This document shows, piece after piece, positions 3,984 through 50,855 of a DNA stretch of 64,000 nt; the stretch's first letter is position 1, and each line of letters opens with the position of its first letter. Under the pieces are notes generated by a model. That model was not told where the DNA came from. It searched no databases and worked only from the letters and a program-made list of their open reading frames with translations. Source of the stretch: Spironucleus salmonicida (lineage: Eukaryota); NCBI RefSeq assembly GCF_000497125.1, contig NC_090598.1:124001-188000 (forward strand), read 5' to 3'. The position numbers and the translations under genes were made by a program.

Positions 3984-6506
3984 ATGTTAACAGAAGAAGA
4001 GTTAGACAAAGAGTTAACCACTAATATAGATTATTTATCATTCTCTATAACAACCATTAACGTTGAATCTAGACAGAGAGCTAATTAGTTTTTCAAAGAC
4101 GTACTTAGTTTGGTCTAAACTGATTTCCAACACGCCAAATTGTTTAAAAATTTGCAGAAAAGTTTACAGAAAACCGAAAAAATTACTCAAGCTTCATAAA
4201 TAAAAGATACTGCTGAAGAGAGTTCAAATTCTGATGTTTTTAGTAGTGATGATGATAATATAGATGAAGACGATGAATTTGCAGTTGAAGGTGTGCAACT
4301 GTAAAGCCAAACCATGTGTGTGTTGCAGTAACTCTAAAATTATTCTAGTAAGAGTAAATAGGCTGCTGGATAGGCTGAGTTATTGAAAAATTTGATTTAA
4401 TAAAAAAATGAACGTATTTAATAATTATAGATGGAGCTAGATTTATCATAGGCATAATATTCTTCGTTAGAAGCAGAAAAATTAGGATACATATTAGATA
4501 TGTCCATTCATGAAGACAAGGTATGTTAACTTTAGGTAAAGGTTTAAGAGTTGTAGGAAGAAATTAAAAACAAGAAATTAAAAATAGATTTATCTGTAAA
4601 TGCTTCTTCTTCGATACCGGGCGGTATGCCTCCTCCTCCACCTCCTGGCGGTATGCCTCCTCCTCCACCTCCTGGCGGTATGCCTCCTCCTCCACCTCCT
4701 GGCGGTATGCCTCCTCCTCCACCTCCTGGCGGTATGCCTCCTCCTCCACCTCCTGGCGGTATGCTTCCTCCTCCACCTCCTGGCGGTATGCCTCCTCCTC
4801 CACCTCCTGGCGGTATGCCTCCTCCTCCACCTCCTGGCGGTATGCCTCCTCCTCCACCTCCTGGCGGTATGCCTCCTCCTCCACCTCCTGGCGGTATGCC
4901 TCCTCCTCCACCTCCTGGCGGTATGCCTCCTCCTCCACCTCCTGGCGGTATGCTTCCTCCTCCACCTCCTGGCGGTATGCTTCCTCCTCCACCTCCTGGC
5001 GGTATGCTTCCTCCTCCACCTCCTGGCGGTATGCCTCCTCCTCCACCTCCTGGCGGTATGCTTCCTCCTCCACCTCCTGGCGGTATGCCTCCTCCTCCAC
5101 CTCCTGGCGGTATGCCTCCTCCTCCACCTCCTGGCGGTATGCTTCCTCCTCCACCTCCTGGCGGTATGCCTCCTCCTCCACCTCCTGGCGGTATGCCTCC
5201 TCCTCCACCTCCTGGCGGTATGCCTCCTCCTCCACCTCCTGGCGGTATGCTTCCTCCTCCACCTCCTGGCGGTATGCTTCCTCCTCCACCTCCTGGCGGT
5301 ATGCCTCCTCCTCCACCTCCTGGCGGTATGCCTCCGCCGCCAGGTACATTTTTAGGTGGTTAATAGGCTCCAAGTTAATAACAATAATATTAATAACCAC
5401 AGTAAGTTACTTTTAACTCTCCAATAATTAAACTTTAACTTAAATCATTTTTCTGGGATAAATTAAAGCCTATGGATATAAAACCAAATTCTATCTGGAA
5501 AGAACTTGGACTGAAGGATATAACTCTAGATGCATAATTAATTGATGAAGTATGTTAATATTTTGAAAATAAGTAACAATAAACTGTCCAACAAGTTGTG
5601 GCCTCACCGATAAAACCGAAGCTTATATCTATTCTTGACGATAAATTATCTAATAAAATAGAGATTATTCTTTAAAAGTTTAAATTAAATCCAAATTAGG
5701 TACGTGACTAAATTCTTACAATGTAAGTACCTTCAGACCAAGTTTCGCTCATTTTATCAACAATTCCAGCGCCAGAAGTTATAGAACAGGTATTAAATGC
5801 CCTAAATGACGAACCGGATCTAGATAAATATGCTATCGGCGAACGCTACATGGCAGTGTTAGGCGTGATCCCACGTTTACGGGCTAGAATGCTTAATTTA
5901 GAGCTCTCAATGGAGTTTGAAGTTGATCTTAATACCTCAATTCAAGCCTACCAGCGCTTAGTTAGCTTCTTCTAATTTTTCAAGAAAAACGCTTCTTTTA
6001 AGAACTACCTGTTAACGATGAGAACGCTTGGAAACCTCATCAACTACAGCAACGCCTCACGAGGAGGTGCTGCTGGTTTCAGAATCAAGTCTTTAGTGAA
6101 ATTCTACGAACTGAAAGGCCAAGACAAGACGCTGCTCCACTGGGTCAATAGCGTCCAGGAGCCAGAGTTTTACAAAGAGCTAAAAGAGCTCTGCAGTGCT
6201 ATCGCAAAGGACGATATTTCAGAGCTCAAAAAGGAATTCGAGAACATTTTGCGGAATTTCAACCAAATCTGCGAGAGCCAGGCGGTGATTCCAAGTCCTC
6301 TGCAGGGAGACCGCTATGCCGGATTCGCCGCCGCGTTCGACCGTAAGTATAGCTAGGTGGTGAGTGATGCGAAAACTGGCTGGGACTAGCTTGATTTGCT
6401 GATTCGGGAGGCACAGGCCGGCTTTTAGGATATTGGGAAGGTAGAGGATTTCTGCAAATCAATAATTTAGTTTGTGGATGTGATAGGGAAAACGGTCAAG
6501 AAGTGA
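3984..6506 (+). CDS. Formin (coiled coil + FH1 polyproline + FH2), ~840 aa
   Basis: ATG 3984 is in frame with the (MPPPPPPGG)n tract. FH2 signatures follow: LKSFFWDKLKP..IKPNSIW, ERYMAVLGVIPRLRARM, GNLINYSNASRGGAAGFRIKSLVKF, KTLLHWV. Ends AAG TGA. Confidence 0.92.
4618..5343 (+). repeat. 27-bp tandem repeat (26 full units plus a partial unit) encoding the formin FH1 domain
   Basis: Unit ATGC(C/T)TCCTCCTCCACCTCCTGGCGGT repeated directly with no spacers. Confidence 0.97.
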
Positions 6507-14582: not shown

Positions 14583-14632
14583 TTTAATATTTATAAATAT
14601 ATATGTAATTTATATTAATATTACAAAATAAA

Positions 14633-15847
14633 ATGCCAGAGTATTAAACATTTTCTTGTCCGTTTTTCATTGTTGGTGATAGTAATACAGGTAAGCGTAC
14701 ATTTGCTAAATCTTTATCCCATAACTTTTAATTAAACGCATAGGATGATAGGTTTAATATTTAAGTGCGTTCAAAATTAATAATATCGCTTATTGAAGAT
14801 TTGCCTGAACAGCCTTTTGGATTGATTTTAGTTTATGATATAACTAATTAAATATCATTTGATTATATAAAAAATATTGTTACAAACCTTCCAACTTCTT
14901 AAATTATTATTCTTCTTGGCACACATCGTGATTTATAGGATCAACGATAAATAGAATATGAGGTAGCCTAAGATTTTAAAAAGTTGCATAATATGATTTG
15001 GTTTGAGTTTGCAGCAGATAGCTAAAAGTAAGCTGATATATTAACGAAGTAAATATTTATCAGATCAGTTTTTGCTATAAGAAATATTATTGAAACAGGA
15101 TGTATTATTCCAACATTAAAAGAAACAGAAAGTAACTAATATTTACAAGTATGCTAAATTAATGATTAATTTGTAAATGAAGATGAAATGATGAATCTTT
15201 CTGCAATTATTGATGAAGAATAATCTGGAGGTGTCAATATGCAGTCCCCAGATCTTCATGTTTTCTAAGAATCACTATCCCCTTAAACTTTAAGATAAAC
15301 ATACTAAGTAGAAGCTGACAAATTTTATATATCTTAAAAGAGCTAACAGAAAGTATTTAAAAAAATAGAAAAATTAGAACGGGAACCACCAATTTTATAA
15401 CTAGATTTAGAATTAAATGGTAATATATATAAATTAGAAGTTCGAAGGGATGATGTTGCATATGATTTGGCAAAATGTTTTGTAGAACGATATAGTCTTG
15501 ATCATTCTATGATAAAATAAATATCACTTTTAGTTTTAGATAGATTATCCTAATTTAGCTAGTAAGAGAGAGAAAGTTAGTTATAGCGGAAAAAACAGGT
15601 AATTGATAATTATCCATTTAACGAACCAAAATTTTTTCATAAGGAGGTTAGAAAAGTTTTATTTAAATTTGAACTTGAAGTGGCAGCAAAAAGCATTACT
15701 GTGGCATGGAGAGAAGGAGATGAATCACGACGTGTAGCAATGGGTTTGATAAAAACTTTAGGCTTAAAAGAAGAATTATATTATAATTTTATTATAGGTA
15801 AAATTAACGAAATCCTAAGTCTGTGGAAACTTAGCTAAGATGAGTGA
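14633..15847 (+). CDS. Divergent Rab-like GTPase domain with long C-terminal extension (~404 aa)
   Basis: IVGDSNTGKRT, LILVYDITNQISF, IILLGTHRDLQDQRQI, WFEFAA. The last codon and stop (GAG TGA) form the outer end of the inverted repeat. Confidence 0.75.
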
Positions 15848-15852
15848 GAACG

Positions 15853-16401
15853 TCAGATCACTACCACCCCCGCTGCGCGCAGCTCCCGGGCCACCTCCTC
15901 CGCGCTGTCCGGGAACACGCGGCCCGTGAGGCCAGTTAGCACGCGCACCTCGGTTGCGTACTTGAGCGCATCGAGGGCGGTGGCCTTGACGCAGAACTCG
16001 AGGGCGAGGCCCACCACGTCAATGCGGTGCACGTTGCGGCTCTGGACGAACCGCGCCAGCCCGTCCGACTAGAAGCCGGAGAAGGCCTCCACATCCTCGC
16101 GCTGGCCCTTGCTGAAGACGTGCTCGGGGACGGCAAGGCCCGGGGCGAAGGCGGCGCCATGGGTGCCCTGGACGCAGTGCGCGGGCCACTGGATGGACTC
16201 CGGCGTGGCGTCGATGCAGATCCCCGGCACGGCCTCGAAGGACTGGTGTGCTGGCGGGTGCCAGTCCCTGGTGGCGACGCAGTAGTCGTAGTCCGGCTGG
16301 GCGGCGTTGATCATGGCCACGAGCCGGGCGTCCTCGATGGTGGGCAGGGAGCCGCCTGGCAGGAAGTCGTTCTGCAGGTCCACGATGATGAGGCAGGTCA
16401 T
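15853..16401 (-). CDS. pncA: Nicotinamidase/pyrazinamidase (PncA family), copy 1, 182 aa
   Basis: LIIVDLQNDFLPGGSL, TRDWHP, WPAHCVQGTHGA, FSKG, and after an in-frame TAG(Gln) VVGLALEFCVKATALDA...LRAAGVVVI. Confidence 0.92.
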
Positions 16402-16438
16402 GTTCGTGGAGGGGTGATTTTACCAAATCCGCCCCAAA
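16402..16438. promoter_or_regulatory. 37-bp divergent intergenic region, putative bidirectional promoter (mirrored at 23530-23566)
   Basis: Lies between head-to-head ATGs. Keeps an AT-richer core (GATTTTACCAAATC) within GC-rich DNA, with a C-run upstream of each ATG. Confidence 0.55.
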
Positions 16439-16900
16439 ATGGCGAGCACGCCGGATGTCTCGCAGTTCGTGATCAACATCATCATCCTCATCATCTTCGT
16501 CGCACTGTTCCTGATCGCCACCATCTCCACGTTGTCCTCGCGGTACTACGTGCGCCGGATGGGCCGCAACCTGCTCACCCGCCCGCTGCCCTTCACGGCC
16601 CTGGAGAACGTCAAGTTCAAGTCCCACCGCGTGAAGGCCATCCGGGACGCCGTCGAGCGCATGGTCCCCGCCCTCCTGCGCCAAGACGACGTCGCGGTGG
16701 ACCCCGAGGCCAAGCGCCGCAACTACGCTGCCGCCGTGGCCACGATGGACCGGCTGTGGAACCCGGACGGGGCGTTCCAGGCTCGCAGCGAGCCGTACCG
16801 CGCGATGCTGGAGCGCGCGCAGTGGTCGGGGGAGGAGGTCAGCCGCGCGGACTTCGAGGCCTTCGTGGAGCTGGGCGGCAGGCTAGTGAGCAAGCAGTGA
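16439..16900 (+). CDS. Hypothetical protein with N-terminal transmembrane helix, copy 1
   Basis: 153 aa; FVINIIILIIFVALFLIATISTL; G/C-ending codons; ends CAG TGA (AGTGA). Confidence 0.8.
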   Translation: MASTPDVSQFVINIIILIIFVALFLIATISTLSSRYYVRRMGRNLLTRPLPFTALENVKFKSHRVKAIRDAVERMVPALLRQDDVAVDPEAKRRNYAAAVATMDRLWNPDGAFQARSEPYRAMLERAQWSGEEVSRADFEAFVELGGRLVSKQ

Positions 16901-16905
16901 TCACT
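16896..16905. terminator. Back-to-back stop/polyadenylation motifs AGTGA|TCACT (mirrored at 23063-23072)
   Basis: Two convergent genes both end in AGTGA with zero intergenic bases. Confidence 0.6.
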
Positions 16906-17089
16906 CGCGGTGCACCCCCGCGGCGTGCCTGCTCTTGGCGTGCACGGCGGCACAGCGCTCGGCCGGCGTCAGCGTGGTGCTCTGGCGGTGCCGGGACCGC
17001 GCCAGGCTCTGCTGCAGCAGGCGGATGCGGTAGTCGGCCCTCCGCAGCTGGGCCTGCAGCACGTCTCTCCGGGGCTCGGGTGCTGGCAT
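16901..17089 (-). CDS. Small basic hypothetical protein (62 aa), copy 1
   Basis: ATG-started MPAPEPRRDVLQAQLRRADYRIRLLQQSL...; ends GAG TGA abutting the neighbour's stop; exactly fills the gap between two genes. Confidence 0.5.
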   Translation of the reverse strand: MPAPEPRRDVLQAQLRRADYRIRLLQQSLARSRHRQSTTLTPAERCAAVHAKSRHAAGVHRE

Positions 17090-17117
17090 TCCGATCAAGT
17101 TTCCCGGGCTCCGGGCC

Positions 17118-17720
17118 TCACTCCCGCACCGCGCGGATCACCACCAGCGCCTCGCTCTGCAGGCGCTTCCGCAGCACCACCGCGGCCGTGAAGCCCCGGG
17201 TAGCGAGCACGGCCAGCAGCTGGTCCGGAGCGTTCGCCTCTATTGCCACCATATATACCGTGGCACCGGGACTGCACCTGGCTGGTAACTCTTGGAGGAA
17301 ACGGTCTATCACATCCCTGCCGTGCGCGCCACCACAGAGAGCCAGGTCCAGCAGATTGTCGCACTGTAGGTCCCCCGGCACGTAAGGCGGGTTGAACGCT
17401 ATTATATCGAATTTTCCATCAACATTTTAGAAAAGATCTGACTAAATAAACTCTCCTTATAAATTATTAACAATAAATGTATTTTGCGCATTCTACAAAG
17501 CTAATGGATTTATATCAGTACAGTAAGGAATAATTTGAAACTATTTAGCCATCTATATTGCAACACATCCATACCCGCATCCGATCTCAATACATCTTGT
17601 AGGTTGAATAGAAGGTGGAAAATTTAAAATAGAATCCATAAGTAAGAATGTATCTTCATCTGGTACATATACTTCATTATAATTTTAAATTTCAAACAGT
17701 GGCAAAGAAGCTTGTTTCAT
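17118..17720 (-). CDS. MTQ2: HemK2/Mtq2 (N6AMT1) eRF1 glutamine methyltransferase, 200 aa
   Basis: EVYVPDEDTFLLMD, SAM motif CIEIGCGYG, TDINPLA, FDIIAFNPPYVP, ALCGGAHGRDVIDRFL. Confidence 0.92.
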
Positions 17721-17877
17721 TGGAAACGGAATACTAATAATTTATTATTTCCTATAAAATAAATAGTGATTAGTATGGATTTTAACTGATAATATTATAT
17801 ACTTGTATACACCTATATGTAATTGCAAAAATATATTTTATTATATAATTTAACTAGAATTATACCACTTCAAAATC

Positions 17878-20800
17878 ATGTAAGAAATCTAACGTTTACA
17901 TGCTGGTGTTTCCACATATACAACATCATCAGTTGGACATTGGCGTAATTTTATCATGTATATGTCTAATTTTAATGTTGTTGTATTCTAGTTAGACCCT
18001 TTTAGACATTTTGCAACCGTTTAAGGACCTAATGATATTAACGATAACGAATCTTCAGGAATTATTGCATTAGCTATTAATAAATCTGGTTAATTAGCAA
18101 TGACATCAAGAAAAGGTATGTTGTAAATTTTTTAACTCCCTAATGTTGAAAGTCCCATTTATTGTTAATCTATTGATTATAAAAAAAGGAATGAAGATAT
18201 ATAAATAGCAGATAGAAGAACTACAAAAGTATTTTTTGAACTTCTTGAATTTCATCCGAATCTTTAAAATGTTGTCTGCGCATATGATGGTACAAATTAA
18301 GAATGTCTTTTTATTAATTTTGAATTAGATAAAGTGTACAAACTGAAGGTCCCTGAAAAAATTAATACAATTGGCATGTTTGGTTCATAATAATAAGGCT
18401 AAAATACTATGTTCTTAGGAACTGTATTAACTGGTAAAATGCTTTATTTTTCTTAATTATAAGAAAAACTATAAGAATTTTATGAAAAGAAATCAATAGC
18501 AAAGAAAATTAATTATTCTTCTCTAGAAGTAGATTAATAAAAGTATGAACTGTAATTGGAGAGAACAGTTGCTGAAGATACAATACCTATGACAGGCTTT
18601 GTTCATGCTAAAAATATTAATTATAGTACGGTGTTATCTTTATCTGAAGATACATAGGCATAAGGGGTAACGCATAATATAGTTTCTACTTGGTATTAAG
18701 GTTATATTCTTGTTCATGATATGCTTAATGTACTATAAGATAATAAAAAATAGTAAGAGGGTTGTAAATTAACAGGTTTCCGTTAGATTAAGCAAGCTAG
18801 ATGTTCAGCTTTTGTCGCCGATAACCCAGGATTATTAGTTGTAGGGTTGTCTTCTGGTTAGTTATAATTTGTTAATGTAACCTCTATATAAACACCTAAA
18901 AACTAGGAATATATAAATTATGGATCATTTTTTGGACATTCTGCAGATTTTATTAATGCATCATTATAAAATGCTATGAATACAGATTATTATCTCTCTT
19001 CATTCTCATCTGATGAAATTATAGCAGATGTAATTGTATCACGGGGCAACCCAATTATTTCTGTTAGATCTTTTGCATTTGAGGGAATATAAACTTAATA
19101 ACCAAAAGGTACTGTTCAATCACCACTATCAGTAACAGAATATTCATAAACTGAGTTTTCAAAGACAGGAATTAGTTCCAGAAAAATCATAGTTTATGGT
19201 ACTTGTGTCGACGGTTCATTTTTCATATATGATTATTCTTAGCAATAATTTATATACTAATCTTAGCCTAACCATTCAGAATCAATATTTTCTTTACAAG
19301 CACATCCAACATTTCCTAATTTATATGCATCTATTTCAGCAGATACCACTTGTAAAGTTTGGAAAGATACCAACTATGGTTTAATTGTTGATCAACAATT
19401 TGGCTCATAAGGAGCATCTAGATAATATTCATAAGAAAAAGCAGTATCTGGATCATTTGGAAACAAGTCTGGTGGGTCGCTAAACACTTACCATTTATTA
19501 GGTCCATTACTTTCAGGAGCTTGGGATCCAAGACCATAATCATGTTTCATGATGCTTTCATCATTTTCTGGAAATGTCCTTATAGCAGACATTTGGAGAG
19601 GCTCTATATTTGCACAGTATAAAAAACATAAAAGCAAGGTTTTAGATACTGCTTGGTCCTTAAATCCAAGATGTTTGGCTGCTACTGTTTCTGCCGATGG
19701 GACGGGTAGAATATATTGTTTTGATAGAAATATTGATGTAACAAAAAATTAAGATAAGTTCGATGTAAATATTAATTTTATGGAGTTTGTTACCTAAACT
19801 TTTTCTCTTAACGGAGTAGCTTTTTCTCCACACGATCCTTTAATTGCGGTAGCATGTGGAGATGGATATGTGAGAGTATATGATTTAAAACTATTTGAAT
19901 AGACAAATGATGAGATATTATAATATTTAGAAAAAGAAAAAATAGAGCATAATTTCATTTAGCCAATTTAAATAGGGAAGTTTAACGTGAGCGAAAAAGC
20001 CGTTCATAAGGTTACTTTCCATCCTGTGATGAAAAATGTATTAGGGGTAACTTGCGATGGCGGTGAGTGCAGAATCTACCGTTACGAGTGGGATGGAAAA
20101 ATGAATTTCAAAGTCTAAACTGCTGCTATTCTTATAGGTCATGAAAACAATGGTAGACCAATCGTTTTCCACCCAGAAATTCCTTATATCGTTCTTACTG
20201 GAAGCTGGGACGGCACTATTAGGGTGTGGAATTGGGTTAAGGTCAAGCAAGAATATATTCACCATCTTGGCGCGGACGTCTATGGAATAGCTATTTAGCC
20301 GTCAAGGCCTTTCGAGTTTTTGGTAGGTTCACGAGATTTGACCATTCGAAAATTCTACCTAAAAGATCTGGCTCAAAAGTTCACTTCTGAGTGCATTTAG
20401 CAGTGTATGCTAAACTCAGTTTTGACGTTTAAAAATGGAAATTCGTATGGCCAGATGACAAATTAGGATTTGAAGTCGCAATTTGACGCAAAAACGCTCT
20501 GTCCGCATACCTGCGATAGCATTATTAACGGATTTGCAGCGCTAATTAACAAACCTAGTTATAAATTGATGAAGGATTAGTTTGACGCGAATCCGAACTA
20601 CAAGTAGCTTTCTGGAGACCTCTCCAAGAACTTTCTGACAGACTTGAATTCTCGAGAAGATAGCTAAAAGCATAATATTTTGTACACTCTCTCGACCATT
20701 ATTTCGTTCTTTTACCCATCTGATTCTGGTGCTAAATAGTTGCTCAATTCGCTATCATTTTACGCAAAAGATGAATTTGACTTTTACGTTAAATCAGCAA

Positions 20801-22509
20801 TCGATGACGGAGACTGGGCTTATAGTGAATTTCAGGAAACAGATGGACTGGCCTTAACTGGTAGAGGTTTATAACATTTTGCAGAATGTTTAGGTAGGCA
20901 CTATATTGGGAATTTATTGAAGTCTAAATAAGATTTTTATAGCTTGCCAAAGGAGTTTTCCACATAAAAATTCGGGTTTTATAATTTCTAAAGAAAGTTA
21001 CCCAATATGAAATCAGATGCTTTTAGATATTAATTTATGAATGGTATTTCACTATTAATTGCAGCTGGAAATTTTTAGGCCGCTATTGAAGCTTTTAAGT
21101 ATGCTCGGTGTGATGACTTGGTTGCATATTATTCAATTTTTGACCCTTAATCTATAGATATTGCATATTCAGAAGTAGATAAAGAAAGTGTTGCTAATAG
21201 ACTTAATTTAGAGGGATCTATTTCGCCAGTTTATAAGCGACTTATCGAAACATAAATAATAGTGCAACATAGTAAAAATTCTGATCTTATTAAATAAATG
21301 TGTTGGATTCTTTGCTAGTAGAGTTAATTTTGTTTAGCAAAGCTGATAGCTCACCAAAACAAAGAAACTGATATTATTATTGAAGTATCTTGGGAAATTG
21401 CATATGATTTACTTAGATAAAAATAGCCTATACGAGCTGCATTGGAACTTTTAACAGTAAAATAATACGAGAATGCCACAAAATTGCTTGCAATATCTGG
21501 CGAGCCATTTTTAGCAGCTTAAATTGCCATGACAACTCCAGAAGAATCTAGCCCTCTGGGTTTATTTGGCATGGCTGAGATAGCGTACTATAACAATATC
21601 GAACCAGATATTTTATTGAAAATAGGACGTGGTAATAGTGTTTCTAGTTAACCTGTAGATACAATGTTTTTAGCAAAGTGGTTTACCTTTGATAAAGTAA
21701 TAAAATATTTTAATAATATGTGTAATTAACTTAATGTTTTTAAGTAAAATGCAACAGAAGTTTCGAATTTCAATGAATAACAAGCATTAGCTATTGTTAA
21801 TATTGGGTAATTTTTTGATTACATATTGAAAGAATAAACCCCAAAAACTTTATTATGGTAAATGAATTAAGTAGCAGGATCTTTAGGATAAAGATATAAC
21901 ACTGCTTGTTTAGGGTTGATGGATGTGGTTAATATGTATGTTGGTAATTTTATAAAAACAAAATCGTCTGTAAAAGCTATATAAATTTGTAATGGGATTG
22001 AAAATTATGCCTGCGAGTTATCTACCTTATATAATTTATTTAGACATAGAGCATTAGATTCAAAATCTACAGTGTGTAGAACTGGAGCTTGTTTATCAAT
22101 GTATGTTGGTGGAATTCATGCAGCTAACCTTAACTTTTTTAACACAGCCGCATTTATGCTTTCTTAAGCCGAAAAAATAGCTACTAAATGCCCTGAGCTA
22201 ATTACTCCTTACATAGATATTGAAGAAATTAAGCTAAGAAAGCTTTTATGTATTTATGCATACTAATAAGGTGATAATACTAAATCAAAAATCACTATTC
22301 TATCTAAATAGTATCCAAAATATGAAAGTGTAGATGTTGAGTAATGGATGCATACTATTATATAAATAGGTGAAAAATATGATAACCATCGAGATCGAGC
22401 TATATTTTTAGCTGTAGGACCTAGTACAATGCGCTGCTTGTTTACACCGTTTGACATTCGACTACAACCAGTTTTAAGTTTTTGTAACACTGGTCTTAAT
22501 AATGAGTGA
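17878..22509 (+). CDS. WDR17: WD repeat protein 17-like (~1543 aa)
   Basis: Many WD repeats. IGHENNGRPIVFHPEIPYIVLTGSWDGTIRVW...GADVYGIAIQPSRPFEFLVGSRDLTIR matches my recollection of WDR17. Ends GAG TGA. Confidence 0.8.
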
Positions 22510-22565
22510 TATTTATATAGTTCTATATTCTAGTTATTTACAATTTAGATTGTGAACTCTACACA

Positions 22566-22850
22566 ATAGCGTTCAACCCGCCTTACGTGCCGGGGGACCC
22601 ACAGTGCGACAATCTGCTGGACCTGGCTCTCTGTGGTGGCGCGCACGGCAGGGATGTGATAGACCGTTTCCTCCAAGAGTTACCAGCCAGGTGCAGTCCC
22701 GGTGCCACGGTATATATGGTGGCAATAGAGGCGAACGCTCCGGACCAGCTGCTGGCCGTGCTCGCTACCCGGGGCTTCACGGCCGCGGTGGTGCTGCGGA
22801 AGCGCCTGCAGAGCGAGGCGCTGGTGGTGATCCGCGCGGTGCGGGAGTGA
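22566..22850 (+). pseudogene. 5'-truncated duplicate of the Mtq2 C-terminal half
   Basis: Begins at IAFNPPY. No in-frame ATG between the upstream in-frame TGA (22503) and the fragment. Lacks the SAM-binding motif. Confidence 0.85.
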
Positions 22851-22878
22851 GGCCCGGAGCCCGGGAAACTTGATCGGA

Positions 22879-23067
22879 ATGCCAGCACCCGAGCCCCGGA
22901 GAGACGTGCTGCAGGCCCAGCTGCGGAGGGCCGACTACCGCATCCGCCTGCTGCAGCAGAGCCTGGCGCGGTCCCGGCACCGCCAGAGCACCACGCTGAC
23001 GCCGGCCGAGCGCTGTGCCGCCGTGCACGCCAAGAGCAGGCACGCCGCGGGGGTGCACCGCGAGTGA
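22879..23067 (+). CDS. Small basic hypothetical protein (62 aa), copy 2
   Basis: Identical mirror of 16901-17089. Confidence 0.5.
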   Translation: MPAPEPRRDVLQAQLRRADYRIRLLQQSLARSRHRQSTTLTPAERCAAVHAKSRHAAGVHRE

Positions 23068-23529
23068 TCACTGCTTGCTCACTAGCCTGCCGCCCAGCTC
23101 CACGAAGGCCTCGAAGTCCGCGCGGCTGACCTCCTCCCCCGACCACTGCGCGCGCTCCAGCATCGCGCGGTACGGCTCGCTGCGAGCCTGGAACGCCCCG
23201 TCCGGGTTCCACAGCCGGTCCATCGTGGCCACGGCGGCAGCGTAGTTGCGGCGCTTGGCCTCGGGGTCCACCGCGACGTCGTCTTGGCGCAGGAGGGCGG
23301 GGACCATGCGCTCGACGGCGTCCCGGATGGCCTTCACGCGGTGGGACTTGAACTTGACGTTCTCCAGGGCCGTGAAGGGCAGCGGGCGGGTGAGCAGGTT
23401 GCGGCCCATCCGGCGCACGTAGTACCGCGAGGACAACGTGGAGATGGTGGCGATCAGGAACAGTGCGACGAAGATGATGAGGATGATGATGTTGATCACG
23501 AACTGCGAGACATCCGGCGTGCTCGCCAT
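23068..23529 (-). CDS. Hypothetical protein with N-terminal transmembrane helix, copy 2
   Basis: Identical mirror of 16439-16900. Confidence 0.8.
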   Translation of the reverse strand: MASTPDVSQFVINIIILIIFVALFLIATISTLSSRYYVRRMGRNLLTRPLPFTALENVKFKSHRVKAIRDAVERMVPALLRQDDVAVDPEAKRRNYAAAVATMDRLWNPDGAFQARSEPYRAMLERAQWSGEEVSRADFEAFVELGGRLVSKQ

Positions 23530-23566
23530 TTTGGGGCGGATTTGGTAAAATCACCCCTCCACGAAC

Positions 23567-24115
23567 ATGACCTGCCTCATCATCGTGGACCTGCAGAACG
23601 ACTTCCTGCCAGGCGGCTCCCTGCCCACCATCGAGGACGCCCGGCTCGTGGCCATGATCAACGCCGCCCAGCCGGACTACGACTACTGCGTCGCCACCAG
23701 GGACTGGCACCCGCCAGCACACCAGTCCTTCGAGGCCGTGCCGGGGATCTGCATCGACGCCACGCCGGAGTCCATCCAGTGGCCCGCGCACTGCGTCCAG
23801 GGCACCCATGGCGCCGCCTTCGCCCCGGGCCTTGCCGTCCCCGAGCACGTCTTCAGCAAGGGCCAGCGCGAGGATGTGGAGGCCTTCTCCGGCTTCTAGT
23901 CGGACGGGCTGGCGCGGTTCGTCCAGAGCCGCAACGTGCACCGCATTGACGTGGTGGGCCTCGCCCTCGAGTTCTGCGTCAAGGCCACCGCCCTCGATGC
24001 GCTCAAGTACGCAACCGAGGTGCGCGTGCTAACTGGCCTCACGGGCCGCGTGTTCCCGGACAGCGCGGAGGAGGTGGCCCGGGAGCTGCGCGCAGCGGGG
24101 GTGGTAGTGATCTGA
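23567..24115 (+). CDS. pncA: Nicotinamidase/pyrazinamidase (PncA family), copy 2
   Basis: Identical mirror of 15853-16401; in-frame TAG at 23897 read as Gln; TGA at 24113. Confidence 0.92.
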
Positions 24116-24224
24116 CGTTCTCACTCTCTCTAAATTTTCTCGTAATAAAATATTACGCTAATCTTTATTAAGTAAACTTTATCATATATAAATTTATTTT
24201 TTAAACTACTTAGTATAAGAGTTT

Positions 24225-47916: not shown

Positions 47917-49542
47917 TCATTCTAGCATTGTTTGAAATAGATCAATAAGTTTTTAATCAGGGTCATTTCGGTATGTATCACAGATAGTGTGTATTTTCTG
48001 TATATTTCCAACATAAAATAATCTTGTTTTGAGCTTGTCATCATCAAAAATTGTGTTTAGAAAACCAGAAACCAGCTCATAATCAAGATCTACTTTAATC
48101 TTCTTTTTCTTTGATTTGGATACCTTAGAGCTTTTGCTGGAATTACACCGTCCTTTCTAAAGCTCAGATTCTTCAATTTTCTAATAGCATTTTCTAGGGT
48201 ATTGTACACTCAACCGCTCATTTACTTCAATCTGGCATTTCGAGTCCACTTTTGGAGGTTTTGGCACAGTCACCGGATGGTACTCTATTACTGTTGGCTT
48301 CCGCAGAAATTTTTTCCCCAATGCTTCATTTTCAAACTGCATAAAAAGCTACAATTTTGTCACATTTTCGCTCCCCGCGCAGCTATGTGATTTTCGAACC
48401 ATTTTGACCTACATCGGCCGTTCAGCAGTAACCTCGGTATACTGCCGTTTCTAGTGCATTTCGACCGTTGTGCAGTCGCCATTGCTAAGTTTTCGGAGTT
48501 TTCCCTTCAAATCGACTTTTTAGAAACCAATTTTGTTATTTATCACTAAAATACGCATCAGAATGCTCAAAATCGGGCTTAGCGAATTATCAAATTCGAC
48601 AATTTTGCAGTGCAAGCTGGCATCCAGGCAGCACACAACACCGCTTGTCTTGAGCTCTTTGAGCTCTGCGAGCTGGCGGCCGGACGCGAATTTTGCGAGG
48701 AATACGAAGAGCTCGCTGAGCTGAAAACGGCGGTTTTCGGTGCGCTGGAATTCGCCGAAAGAGGCTAAAATGCTGCTCGAAATGGGTGCCAGGTCCAGCG
48801 AGCAGACGGTGTTGATATCGAGGCCTTTTAAGATGATATGCTGAGCTGGAATGCCATGGCTGAAATTCGTGAAATCTGAGGTTTTGAGGTCAGTAAATGA
48901 GAGGTCCAGGAGGTCTAGCAGCGTGATTGACTTCAAGAGGTATTTTAGCGGTTTGACAAACTTTTTAAGCGGTAGATTTCTGAGCACTAGATACTTGATG
49001 TTGGGCTGATTAGACAGAAAATGGAAAATGGAGTGCATTTCGAAATGCGTGTTCATAAGGGTAAGTGATACTATACTGACTGTTGGGGCGAAGAAGAAAT
49101 CGTCGAATATTTCTTGGGTCTAAAATAATTTTTCTGGGTTAGTCAGAAAAATTGACTAAAGATTTAGTATGGTAGTGAAATTAAAGTCTATATTGTGCTC
49201 TTAAGGTGAAAATGGTTTTTTAAATTCAATGTTATATCCAAATCTAGCACCAATATTAATATTTCCATTAAGGAATTCTTCGAAGCGATCTGCTGTAACC
49301 CCTTGAATTTATGTATACAAAAATTTTAAGTACTCCTCATCGTCTTGCTAGTATTAAATGAAATGTTGGATAAATTTGGAACTTTGATATAGTAAATATT
49401 TCAAAATATCAATTTAATCGAAATCAAAATATTAATCCACTACAATCCAATTAAATTGTAAAAATTACTCTAATGATCTTCCATAATTTTTAATATGAAA
49501 GTAATTTGCAGTTTTCTCAAAAGCATCTCTTATTGAAATCAT
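47917..49542 (-). CDS. Hypothetical protein with leucine-rich-repeat-like segments (~541 aa)
   Basis: In frame with ORF-track fragment 48520-49056 (IKYLVLRNL, LDLLDLSFTDL). Confidence 0.65.
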
Positions 49543-49631
49543 AAATTCTATACATATTTCTAATATATAATAATCTATAACGTTGAATAAATATATACGA
49601 ATTAGATATAATTATATTGTATTTGTAATTA

Positions 49632-50855
49632 ATGGAAATTTAATAAGTAGTTCCATAATATTTAGGTGTTATAGGTTTTGTTATAACTCAAGCTATTTAA
49701 CCACTAAGTTATCATTTTCTTGTTGGACATCTAATATCTACACCCTAATAATCGTCACTGTTTGATATCACGTCATATCAGTATAATATATATAAGTTTC
49801 ATCATTGGACTTTATGGTTTGACATATTTTATCTTATTTAAGGTATAAACTGTTATTTAATCTTCAAATCTTTTGGATAATATAAATATAAGGCTATTCT
49901 TTATTAAGCATCTTGGTATTGCCGGTATTTAATTTAATATATTTTACTTATAGTATTATTATCGTTTTTACCCAACAATGAATATCATTTCAGTATCTCA
50001 GGGTTCTTATTATTATAGAGTTGTTAATAACCATATTTTGATGTTTATGACTTAATTGCTGTTTAATCCTAATTATTTCAAGGATTCACATGTTTGTATG
50101 GTTGTATTCTATTGGAAAAGTATTTTAATGTCAGAAAGATGATTATCTTTGTTTTATCAACGATTTTATTTGTCCGCTTTGTGTATATCTTAAATATGCT
50201 TATTCAAGGATCATTTAGTTAGTTTTAATAAGAAAGCGTAATGGGTTAAGTATTTCAATAACAATTTCCACTATTTTGGGGATTCTTTTATTCATATTCT
50301 CTTGATACAGGATTAATCAAAAAACGCAAATTTTCTAAAAAATATTCACCAGATTTAATAATTACTTTAATTTTCTCTGTCTTATATGTTTATTGTTAAT
50401 TCATAACACGATTTGAACTTCATGAACTATAAATAAAATCTAATATTCTAATTATTTTATCGTATACATTTGCAAGACCTTTTCTTCCAATCTTCTATAG
50501 TTTTATAATCTATTTTTTAGATGATGCACCCATTATGAAAATTTTGATTAACAATAAGCTTTTTCAATTAATATAAAAGGAATTTGATTTTATCGGTTCC
50601 TCCTTTATCTTATTTTCTAAAGTTACCTTAGCTTATATATAAAATGTTGAGTTTGGACCTTTTGATGATCTTATTGTTATGTTTATTAAAAATGGTGCAA
50701 TAGTGTTTACTATTATTATAGGAATGTTAATTAGTAAATTAGCAAACCCTACTCTTCATCGAATTAATTGCTATTTAAAGGATATTGAAAAAAATATTTA
50801 AAAGAAATAAGCATTTACACCTTATAATAGGAGTATTGAGAAATATAGTGAGTGA
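49632..50855 (+). CDS. Multi-pass membrane protein (407 aa), weak resemblance to acyltransferase-3 family
   Basis: Frame walked and fully open; multiple hydrophobic segments. WFDIFYLIQG loosely resembles the VDxFFxxSG motif. Ends GAG TGA. Confidence 0.6.

What the first reader, a model, noticed from the sequence alone, without database searches (positions are those of the whole stretch)
17118..17720. GC content jumps inside one gene (Mtq2) at the repeat boundary: signature of GC-biased gene conversion
Seen: the single-copy 5' half is 14/60 GC (17461-17520) and uses TAR Gln codons. The duplicated 3' half is 35-36/60 GC near the edge (17221-17340) and 45/60 deeper in (17161-17220). The frame is seamless across FDII|AFNPPY, and the only arm mismatch lies 35 bp from the inner edge. 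Inference: native AT-rich DNA was driven to high GC only where it has a recombination partner, with weaker conversion near the edge. That would be a natural experiment in gBGC in a lineage with no described sexual cycle.
Basis: partly seen in the sequence, partly recalled or inferred. Interest (0 to 1): 0.88.

Follow-up and report, generated by a model that had tools for sequence, protein, structure and literature searches.

The report
GC-rich inverted repeat splits Mtq2 gene
In an AT-rich protist genome, a 1.56-kb inverted duplication is about 68% GC while its surroundings are about 29%, and the jump falls in the middle of one intact gene, which fits long-term GC-biased copy correction between the two arms.

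Summary
The exact inverted-repeat arms are 15842-17403 and 22565-24126: 1562 bp, with one mismatch at 17368. They are 68% GC; the spacer is 31% and the rest of the window 29%. The GC change points lie 3-4 bp from the inner repeat edges. A complete HemK2/MTQ2 methyltransferase gene (17118-17720, minus strand, TAA/TAG read as Gln) crosses the inner edge in frame at FDII|AFNPPY. GC3 is 0.19 before the edge and 0.78 after it, and 0.93-0.96 in the other three arm genes.

Both halves look like the native fornicate/diplomonad gene. Relatives show no comparable step in amino-acid make-up (largest of 147 family members), and 18 distant loci show none in DNA. The arm genes fit the host code, including an in-frame TAG in the nicotinamidase gene. 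No near-identical foreign sequence was found.

GC-biased copy correction between the arms is the best reading (about 0.6), but it remains an inference. A Spironucleus salmonicida genome paper already reports higher GC in duplicated regions. This is a striking new example of a known kind.

The parts
15842..17403 (.). Inverted-repeat arm 1, 1562 bp, 67.9% GC. It sits in native gene context at both ends.
22565..24126 (.). Inverted-repeat arm 2, the reverse complement of arm 1 with one mismatch; 67.9% GC.
17404..22564 (.). Single-copy spacer, 5161 bp, 31.2% GC. It holds the Mtq2 5' half with its upstream region and the 1543-aa WD40 gene.
17118..17720 (-). Complete HemK2/MTQ2 (N6AMT1-type) glutamine methyltransferase gene, 200 aa, TGA stop. 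It spans the spacer/arm boundary in frame.
17404..17720 (-). Mtq2 5' half, single copy, AT-rich: GC3 0.19, 7 TAR-Gln codons, SAM-binding motif IEIGCGYG.
17118..17403 (-). Mtq2 3' half inside arm 1, starting at IAFNPPY. GC3 is 0.78, rising from 0.5-0.8 near the edge to 0.9-1.0; no TAR codon.
22565..22850 (+). Second copy of the Mtq2 3' half in arm 2. There is no ATG, and a TGA lies 20 codons upstream of IAFNPPY, so it is a start-less truncated fragment kept intact by identity to arm 1.
17368..17368 (.). The only arm-to-arm mismatch (partner position 22600). The codon is CTA (Leu) in the functional copy and CCA (Pro) in the truncated copy.
17404..17433 (.). Decayed extension of the repeat (partner 22535-22564): 18/30 identical, then 19/90 further out. 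AT-rich.
15853..16401 (-). Nicotinamidase/isochorismatase-family gene (PncA-like), 182 aa, GC3 0.93, with one in-frame TAG read as Gln. An identical copy lies at 23567-24115 (+).
16439..16900 (+). ORF153, an orphan membrane-anchored protein annotated in the source record, GC3 0.96. An identical copy lies at 23068-23529 (-).
16901..17089 (-). ORF62, annotated in the source record, GC3 0.94. An identical copy lies at 22879-23067 (+).
14603..15847 (+). AT-rich Ras-family-domain gene (GC3 0.18) whose last two codons (GAG TGA) lie inside arm 1.

Best explanation
A native, gene-dense stretch (PncA, ORF153, ORF62 and the 3' half of Mtq2) was duplicated in inverted orientation about 5.2 kb away. Since then the two arms have evolved in concert by frequent arm-to-arm gene conversion. 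That correction, or the repair synthesis tied to it, favours G/C over A/T. Synonymous, non-coding and even amino-acid-changing sites inside the arms were therefore driven from the genome's ~20% GC3 to 78-96%. DNA one base outside the arms stayed AT-rich. The inner edge cuts Mtq2 at the NPPY motif, so a single functional gene is half AT-rich and half GC-rich. Shown: the structure, the composition step, its coincidence with the repeat edges, the native character of the genes, and the absence of the step in relatives. Inferred: that conversion keeps the arms identical, that it is GC-biased, and that the arms started AT-rich.
For: (1) The arms differ at 1 of 1562 bases, while the flanks are unrelated beyond 30 nt. 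(2) GC change points lie 3-4 bp from the inner repeat edges, and the outer edges fall within the support intervals. (3) The shift is strongest at silent sites: GC3 is 0.93, 0.96, 0.94 and 0.78 in the arm genes against 0.18-0.23 in four flanking genes, on both strands. Non-coding pieces inside the arm are 0.51-0.68 GC. (4) Gln codons in the arms are CAG 19, CAA 2, TAG 1, TAA 0; in the flanks they are TAA 119, TAG 41, CAA 22, CAG 9. (5) The arm DNA is native. Mtq2 is collinear with the family profile across the junction. Its 3' half shares diplomonad-specific motifs with Giardia and Hexamita. PncA carries an in-frame TAG at a variable polar column where 20 of 120 aligned sequences (query included) have Q, and it still matches the family beyond that codon. 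The best non-self PncA hit is 47% identical, so it is not a known contaminant. (6) The step is specific to this lineage. The GARP-minus-FYMINK shift between halves is the largest of 147 family members (z 4.8) and is absent in Hexamita, Giardia and Carpediemonas. In 18 distant loci the GC difference between halves is 0.004 +/- 0.033, against +0.36 here. (7) The truncated, start-less Mtq2 copy in arm 2 is still intact, as expected under copy correction. (8) Precedents exist. Primate X palindrome arms are GC-enriched by biased conversion (PMC8981503, passages). Duplicated regions of S. salmonicida average 44.7% GC against 30.7% for the rest (PMC9509377, passages).
Against: No substitution was polarised, because the closest relative DNA found was 25-43% identical at protein level. 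In a simple two-copy model the GC allele must win 93-99% of conversions to reach GC3 0.78-0.95 from 0.20, against about 70% in primates (PMC8981503). Only a multi-copy sweep, such as extra copies in a polyploid binucleate cell, brings this down to about 0.7-0.8 (a toy model). A 27-copy, 98-99% identical tandem array in the same window (formin FH1 region) has GC3 0.23, below the 0.37 of the rest of that gene. The GC3 gradient is clear at the inner edge only. The 3' half is unusually close to the Carpediemonas orthologue: 49% identity against 35% for the 5' half, and 9 of 12 residues shared only with it are not GARP. That could point to an old, slowly evolving repeat or to a donor. This is a single locus, the whole genome was not available, and no read-level check of the assembly was possible.
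Confidence: 0.6

Rival explanations
1. The inverted repeat drives the GC-richness, but not through biased resolution of mismatches. Candidates are GC-biased mutagenesis during recombination- or hairpin-associated repair synthesis, or selection on the arms' base composition.
For: It rests on the same structural evidence as the best explanation. The bias needed for pure gBGC is very high. The homogenised tandem array shows no GC3 excess, so homogenisation alone is not sufficient.
Against: No feature of the sequence calls for it specifically. GC-biased conversion has direct precedent in palindrome arms (PMC8981503). Selection on composition would not be expected to stop within 3-4 bp of the repeat edge inside a gene.
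Confidence: 0.15
2. The GC-rich block came from a GC-rich donor, for example an unsampled Carpediemonas-like fornicate. It replaced the native 3' end of Mtq2 by recombination at the conserved NPPY region and was then duplicated.
For: The 3' half pairs with Carpediemonas in the half-gene tree (support 0.81) and is 47-49% identical to it, against 35-36% for the 5' half. PncA's best hits are unnamed records at 45-47% identity, and the first named hits, at 42-43%, are bacterial. ORF153 has no relatives.
Against: No hit exceeds 49% identity, so no recent donor is in view. The 3' half carries motifs shared with Giardia and Hexamita but not with Carpediemonas, such as KRLQSE.L. An in-frame crossover between DNAs of 29% and 65% GC is unlikely. 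The in-frame TAG=Gln in PncA fits the host code. This model predicts neither the GC3 gradient inside the arm nor the 18/30 decayed extension into AT-rich DNA.
Confidence: 0.1
3. The arms are a relic. [quoted passage not shown] No GC bias is needed.
For: The 3' half is closer than the 5' half to every orthologue compared: 49 vs 35, 38 vs 36, 37 vs 29 and 39 vs 35%. Its terminal branch is also shorter, 0.34 vs 0.87. Relatives are GC-richer: Carpediemonas 57.1%, G. muris 54.7% (PMC11787283 Table 1).
Against: GC3 of 0.93-0.96 seems too high to be mere preservation, though no relative's GC3 was measured. Unbiased copy correction does not lower the neutral substitution rate (population-genetic reasoning). 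The Hexamita orthologue, from an equally AT-rich genome, shows no step, so the repeat would have to predate the AT shift and then be lost there.
Confidence: 0.08
4. The structure is an assembly or contamination artefact: GC-rich DNA of another organism was stitched into an AT-rich contig.
For: The composition contrast is extreme.
Against: Mtq2 reads in frame and collinear across the junction with no indel. The two arms differ at one base, and each joins unique AT-rich DNA at both ends. The source's own annotation calls all four arm proteins. ORF153 also stands in several other protein collections: UniRef, eukprot and MetaClust. No near-identical protein exists among 5.8 billion.
Confidence: 0.07

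Closest known systems
[quoted passage not shown]
   Same: Inverted repeat arms are kept more than 99% identical by arm-to-arm conversion. The arms are GC-richer than the flanks. The process does not depend on meiotic crossing over between homologues.
   Different: Magnitude: 46.3% vs 41.2% GC in human, with an equilibrium of 60.9%, against 68% vs 29% and GC3 up to 0.96 here. Here the arms are only 1.56 kb. The edge bisects a functional gene. The host is a diplomonad-like protist with a variant genetic code.
Higher GC of duplicated regions in Spironucleus salmonicida (PMC9509377, passages and first third of text read)
   Same: An AT-rich hexamitine diplomonad genome in which duplicated regions (>=2 kb, >=95% identity) average 44.7% GC against 30.7% for the rest. 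This window is probably from such an organism, but that was not verified.
   Different: That paper gives a genome-wide mean and names no mechanism for it in the passages seen; gene conversion is mentioned only for surface-protein gene regions. This repeat is under its 2-kb threshold, is far more GC-rich, and shows the step at base-pair resolution inside one gene. Its supplements and figures were not seen.
Plastid inverted repeat: genes moved into the IR gain GC and slow down; IR edges leave truncated gene copies (PMC5010901, title and start of abstract only; truncated edge copies are recalled knowledge)
   Same: There are two inverted arms with a single-copy spacer, and a truncated gene fragment sits at one arm edge. 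GC is elevated, and the part of the gene inside the repeat appears to diverge more slowly.
   Different: This is a nuclear locus with two copies per chromosome rather than a high-copy organelle genome, and the composition shift is much larger.
gBGC in rDNA and other multicopy families (Escobar et al. 2011, cited within PMC10123126 for Giardia rDNA; passage read)
   Same: Concerted evolution is linked with high GC, and this has been suggested once for a diplomonad.
   Different: Those cases are tandem multicopy arrays. Here a two-copy inverted duplication of ordinary protein genes is involved, and a tandem array in this window shows no GC3 excess.

Membership tests
HemK2/MTQ2 (N6AMT1) protein glutamine methyltransferase | Full-length match to the family model above its curated cut-off | tested here: met
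   TIGR00537: 145.6 bits against a cut-off of 87, residues 17-197 on profile 1-178/179. PDB N6AMT1/HEMK2 chains: E 6e-26, residues 14-197.
HemK2/MTQ2 (N6AMT1) protein glutamine methyltransferase | Catalytic NPPY motif and SAM-binding GxGxG motif | tested here: met
   FNPPYVP at residues 109-115 and IEIGCGYG at 44-51 in the translation. Both align with the same motifs in Giardia, Hexamita and Carpediemonas. The motif names are recalled knowledge.
HemK2/MTQ2 (N6AMT1) protein glutamine methyltransferase | Methylates release factor eRF1 together with a Trm112 partner | not tested
GC-biased gene conversion between inverted-repeat arms | Near-identical arms with diverged flanks | tested here: met
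   1 mismatch in 1562 bp. The flanks are 18/30 identical, then 19/90.
GC-biased gene conversion between inverted-repeat arms | GC excess confined to the arms and present at silent and non-coding sites | tested here: met
   Change points lie 3-4 bp from the inner edges. GC3 is 0.78-0.96 against 0.18-0.23, and non-coding arm pieces are 0.51-0.68 GC.
GC-biased gene conversion between inverted-repeat arms | Derived substitutions in the arms are AT->GC biased when polarised with an outgroup | not testable with these tools
   No close relative's DNA: the best of 29 metagenome loci is 43% identical at protein level, and no own genome is held.
GC-biased gene conversion between inverted-repeat arms | Effect weakens towards the arm edges | tested here: inconclusive
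   Clear at the inner edge (GC3 0.5-0.8 for ~50 codons). Slight at the outer edge (0.8-1.0).
Foreign island (horizontal transfer or contaminant) | A donor lineage clearly closer than the host's own relatives, or near-identical foreign sequence | tested here: not met
   The best non-self hits are 47% (PncA), 47% (Mtq2 3' half, to a fornicate) and none at all (ORF153).
Foreign island (horizontal transfer or contaminant) | Island borders fall between host genes rather than inside them | tested here: not met
   The inner border lies inside Mtq2, in frame. The outer border lies inside the last two codons of the Ras-family-domain gene.

The most novel reading that the evidence does not exclude
A near-saturating GC-biased copy-correction process may act without meiosis in a binucleate, polyploid diplomonad. 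It would be strong enough to rewrite native AT-rich coding DNA to GC3 of about 0.95 wherever a second copy exists in cis, and it would stop within a few bases of the repeat edge. If it is general, it would explain the GC heterogeneity of hexamitine genomes. It would also give a base-pair-resolution read-out of conversion tract limits and bias in a lineage where sex has never been observed.
Probability: 0.45. Interest if true: 0.75.

Novelty: new member of a known kind. Interest (0 to 1): 0.62.

Why it matters
One functional gene is half at the genome's mutational equilibrium (GC3 0.19) and half at 0.78-1.0, and the switch sits at the edge of an inverted duplication. The same gene, strand, expression level and chromosomal neighbourhood apply on both sides, so only the presence of a pairing partner differs. 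That is an unusually clean internal control for what intragenomic recombination does to base composition. If confirmed, it would show GC-biased correction of a strength not reported for palindromes in the papers read here, acting in a protist with no observed sexual cycle. It would also give a mechanism for the published but unexplained GC excess of duplicated regions in Spironucleus. On the practical side, in such 68% GC islands a TGA-only stop code throws up long spurious ORFs in several frames, which is a hazard for annotation.

Tried and rejected
- Own-genome search: no genome is held.
- Half-gene trees (147 sequences, FastTree). The 5' half was unresolved (nearest clade support 0.02-0.86, unnamed sequences). 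The 3' half paired with Carpediemonas (0.81). The full-length protein grouped with Giardia and Hexamita (0.90). These are too weak to decide ancestry on their own.
- Metagenome scan for relatives: 29 loci, all distant (25-43% identity). They served only as a control for an intrinsic GC step. I used the 18 loci that cover both halves and dropped 11 partial ones.
- ORF153 homologue search: no hit other than itself.
- Rfam on the whole window: no match.
- Bacterial contaminant (for example the culture bacterium described for Hexamita in PMC11787283): rejected, because PncA's best hit is only 47% identical and Mtq2 is fornicate-like.
- Window being Hexamita inflata or Giardia: rejected, because those orthologues are 39% and 33-35% identical.
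- Transposon with long terminal inverted repeats inserted into Mtq2: rejected, because Mtq2 is intact and collinear.
- General 'any homogenised repeat becomes GC-rich' rule: not supported by the FH1 tandem array (GC3 0.23).
- Literature: searches for Spironucleus + GC-rich, Spironucleus + GC content + inverted repeat, GC-biased gene conversion + Giardia, and biased gene conversion + diplomonad found no description of this locus or of gBGC in diplomonad duplicates. The only mention was a remark on Giardia rDNA.

Full report
**What is there**

The window is AT-rich, 0.29 GC outside the feature, and its long reading frames are open only if TAA and TAG are read as Gln. Two 68% GC blocks stand out. 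They are the arms of an inverted repeat. Base-by-base comparison puts the exact arms at 15842-17403 and 22565-24126: 1562 bp with a single mismatch at 17368/22600. The next 30 nt inward are 18/30 identical and the following 90 nt only 19/90. The repeat tool's end at 17434 therefore reflects a decayed extension, not the exact edge. Nothing comparable is seen at the outer edges.

The frame 17720->17118 gives a 200-aa protein. It has seven TAR-Gln codons before the junction and none after it. GC3 is 0.19 in the 105 codons outside the arm and 0.78 in the 94 codons inside. Maximum-likelihood GC change points fall at 17400 and 22569, that is 3-4 bp from the inner repeat edges. The outer edges lie inside the support intervals of their change points.

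**What the arms carry**

- A nicotinamidase/isochorismatase-family gene (PF00857).
- Two small genes with no family match, ORF153 and ORF62. Both are annotated in the source record.
- The 3' half of the methyltransferase gene.

GC3 is 0.93, 0.96, 0.94 and 0.78 for these four, against 0.18-0.23 in four flanking genes. Amino-acid use shifts as well: GARP 0.31-0.44 against 0.11-0.18. Gln codons switch from 84% TAR in the flanks (160 of 191) to 1 of 22 in the arms. Non-coding pieces inside the arm are 0.51-0.68 GC. In ORF153's membrane segment the residues remain Ile/Phe/Leu, while GC3 across that stretch is 0.9-1.0 (sequence). That is what a composition pressure acting on a protein under constraint looks like.

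**Is the GC-rich DNA native?**

The methyltransferase is a full-length HemK2/MTQ2: TIGR00537 scores 145.6 bits against a cut-off of 87, across profile positions 1-178 of 179, and human N6AMT1 structures match at E 6e-26. There is no insertion or deletion at the junction relative to orthologues.

Its best named relatives are Carpediemonas (44%), Hexamita inflata (39%) and Giardia (33-35%). The organism is therefore a fornicate, most likely a hexamitine diplomonad, and is neither H. inflata nor Giardia. A Spironucleus-like source is plausible but not verified.

Taken separately (BLAST), the 5' half is 38% identical to Hexamita and 31-33% to Giardia. The 3' half is 40% identical to each and 47% to Carpediemonas. 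The 3' half also carries K[RK]L[QP]SE.L and LDLAL.GG, which it shares with Giardia and/or Hexamita but not with Carpediemonas.

The nicotinamidase gene has an in-frame TAG at a variable polar column, where Q occurs in 20 of 120 aligned sequences (query included). It continues to match its family for 70 more codons, so it is read by the host's code. Its best non-self hit is 47% identical, so it is not a sampled contaminant. ORF153 has no relative at all.

**Is the step peculiar to this gene copy?**

Yes. The GARP-minus-FYMINK difference between the C- and N-halves is 0.41, the largest of 147 family members (z 4.8). The values for Hexamita, Giardia and Carpediemonas are -0.04 to 0.07. At DNA level, 18 distant homologous loci that cover both halves (of 29 found) differ by 0.004 +/- 0.033 between halves, against +0.36 here.

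**Arm 2**

Arm 2 holds a start-less copy of the Mtq2 3' half, with a TGA 20 codons upstream and no ATG in between. Arm 1 sits in native context at both ends. Arm 2 is therefore the derived copy, and its useless gene fragment has stayed intact only because it is kept identical to arm 1. Recombination between the arms would invert the spacer yet still leave a complete Mtq2 gene (inference).

**Mechanism**

The simplest account is an old inverted duplication whose arms are homogenised by a GC-favouring correction process. The same has been documented for primate sex-chromosome palindromes: arms at 46.3% against flanks at 41.2%, with a bias of about 0.70 (PMC8981503). It also fits the report that duplicated regions of S. 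salmonicida average 44.7% GC against 30.7% for the rest (PMC9509377).

The size of the effect here is far larger. In a two-copy model the GC allele would have to win 93-99% of events. If a variant instead has to sweep through several extra copies, as it might in a polyploid, binucleate cell, a bias of 0.7-0.8 would be enough. This is a toy calculation and an inference.

**Points against, and rivals**

- Direction of change could not be polarised.
- The GC3 gradient is clear only at the inner edge.
- A 27-copy homogenised tandem array in the formin gene at 4482-5483 has GC3 0.23, below the rest of that gene.
- In the family alignment the 3' half is closer than the 5' half to every orthologue compared: 49 vs 35% to Carpediemonas, 37 vs 29% to Giardia, 38 vs 36% to Hexamita. 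Most residues shared only with Carpediemonas are not GC-type (9 of 12). This suggests the repeat is old and slows divergence. It leaves some room for a relic model or for a GC-rich fornicate donor.

I rate biased copy correction at 0.6, another repeat-linked GC force at 0.15, a donor at 0.10, a relic at 0.08 and an artefact at 0.07.

**Novelty**

GC enrichment of concertedly evolving repeats is known, and a genome-wide hint exists for a Spironucleus genome. Four literature searches found no description of this locus or of biased conversion in diplomonad duplicates. The only mention was a remark on Giardia rDNA. Supplements were not consulted. This is a new, unusually sharp and extreme example of a known kind.

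Noticed in passing
window 3984-6506 (+), array 4482-5483: A formin-like gene holds a 27-nt tandem array of (GGMPPPPPP)n, about 27 units, 98-99% identical. Its 0.44 GC comes from Pro/Gly codons. GC3 in the array is only 0.23, against 0.37 in the rest of the gene, so this homogenised repeat shows no silent-site GC excess.
   Followed up: partly
window 48200-49100, inside ORF 47917-49656 (-): A patch of 0.40-0.57 GC sits inside an otherwise AT-rich gene that is single-copy within this window. Whether it has a partner elsewhere in the genome could not be checked. A truly single-copy GC patch would bear on the conversion model.
   Followed up: no
window 15858-17538 and 22292-23946: With TGA as the only stop, the 68% GC arms throw up long overlapping ORFs in several frames (for example 459 and 505 aa). 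These are almost certainly spurious and are a trap for gene callers.
   Followed up: no
window 16439-16900 (+) and 23068-23529 (-): ORF153 has an N-terminal membrane segment followed by about a 110-aa domain. It has no detectable relative among 5.8 billion proteins, yet it is annotated and kept in two identical copies.
   Followed up: partly
window 1-64000: No Rfam family, tRNAs included, reaches its gathering score anywhere in the 64 kb.
   Followed up: yes
window 17404-17433 / 22535-22564: Thirty AT-rich bases just outside the exact arms are still 60% identical and encode partly similar residues (N, D and V/L retained). This suggests the homogenised tract was once slightly longer, or that its edge moves.
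   Followed up: partly
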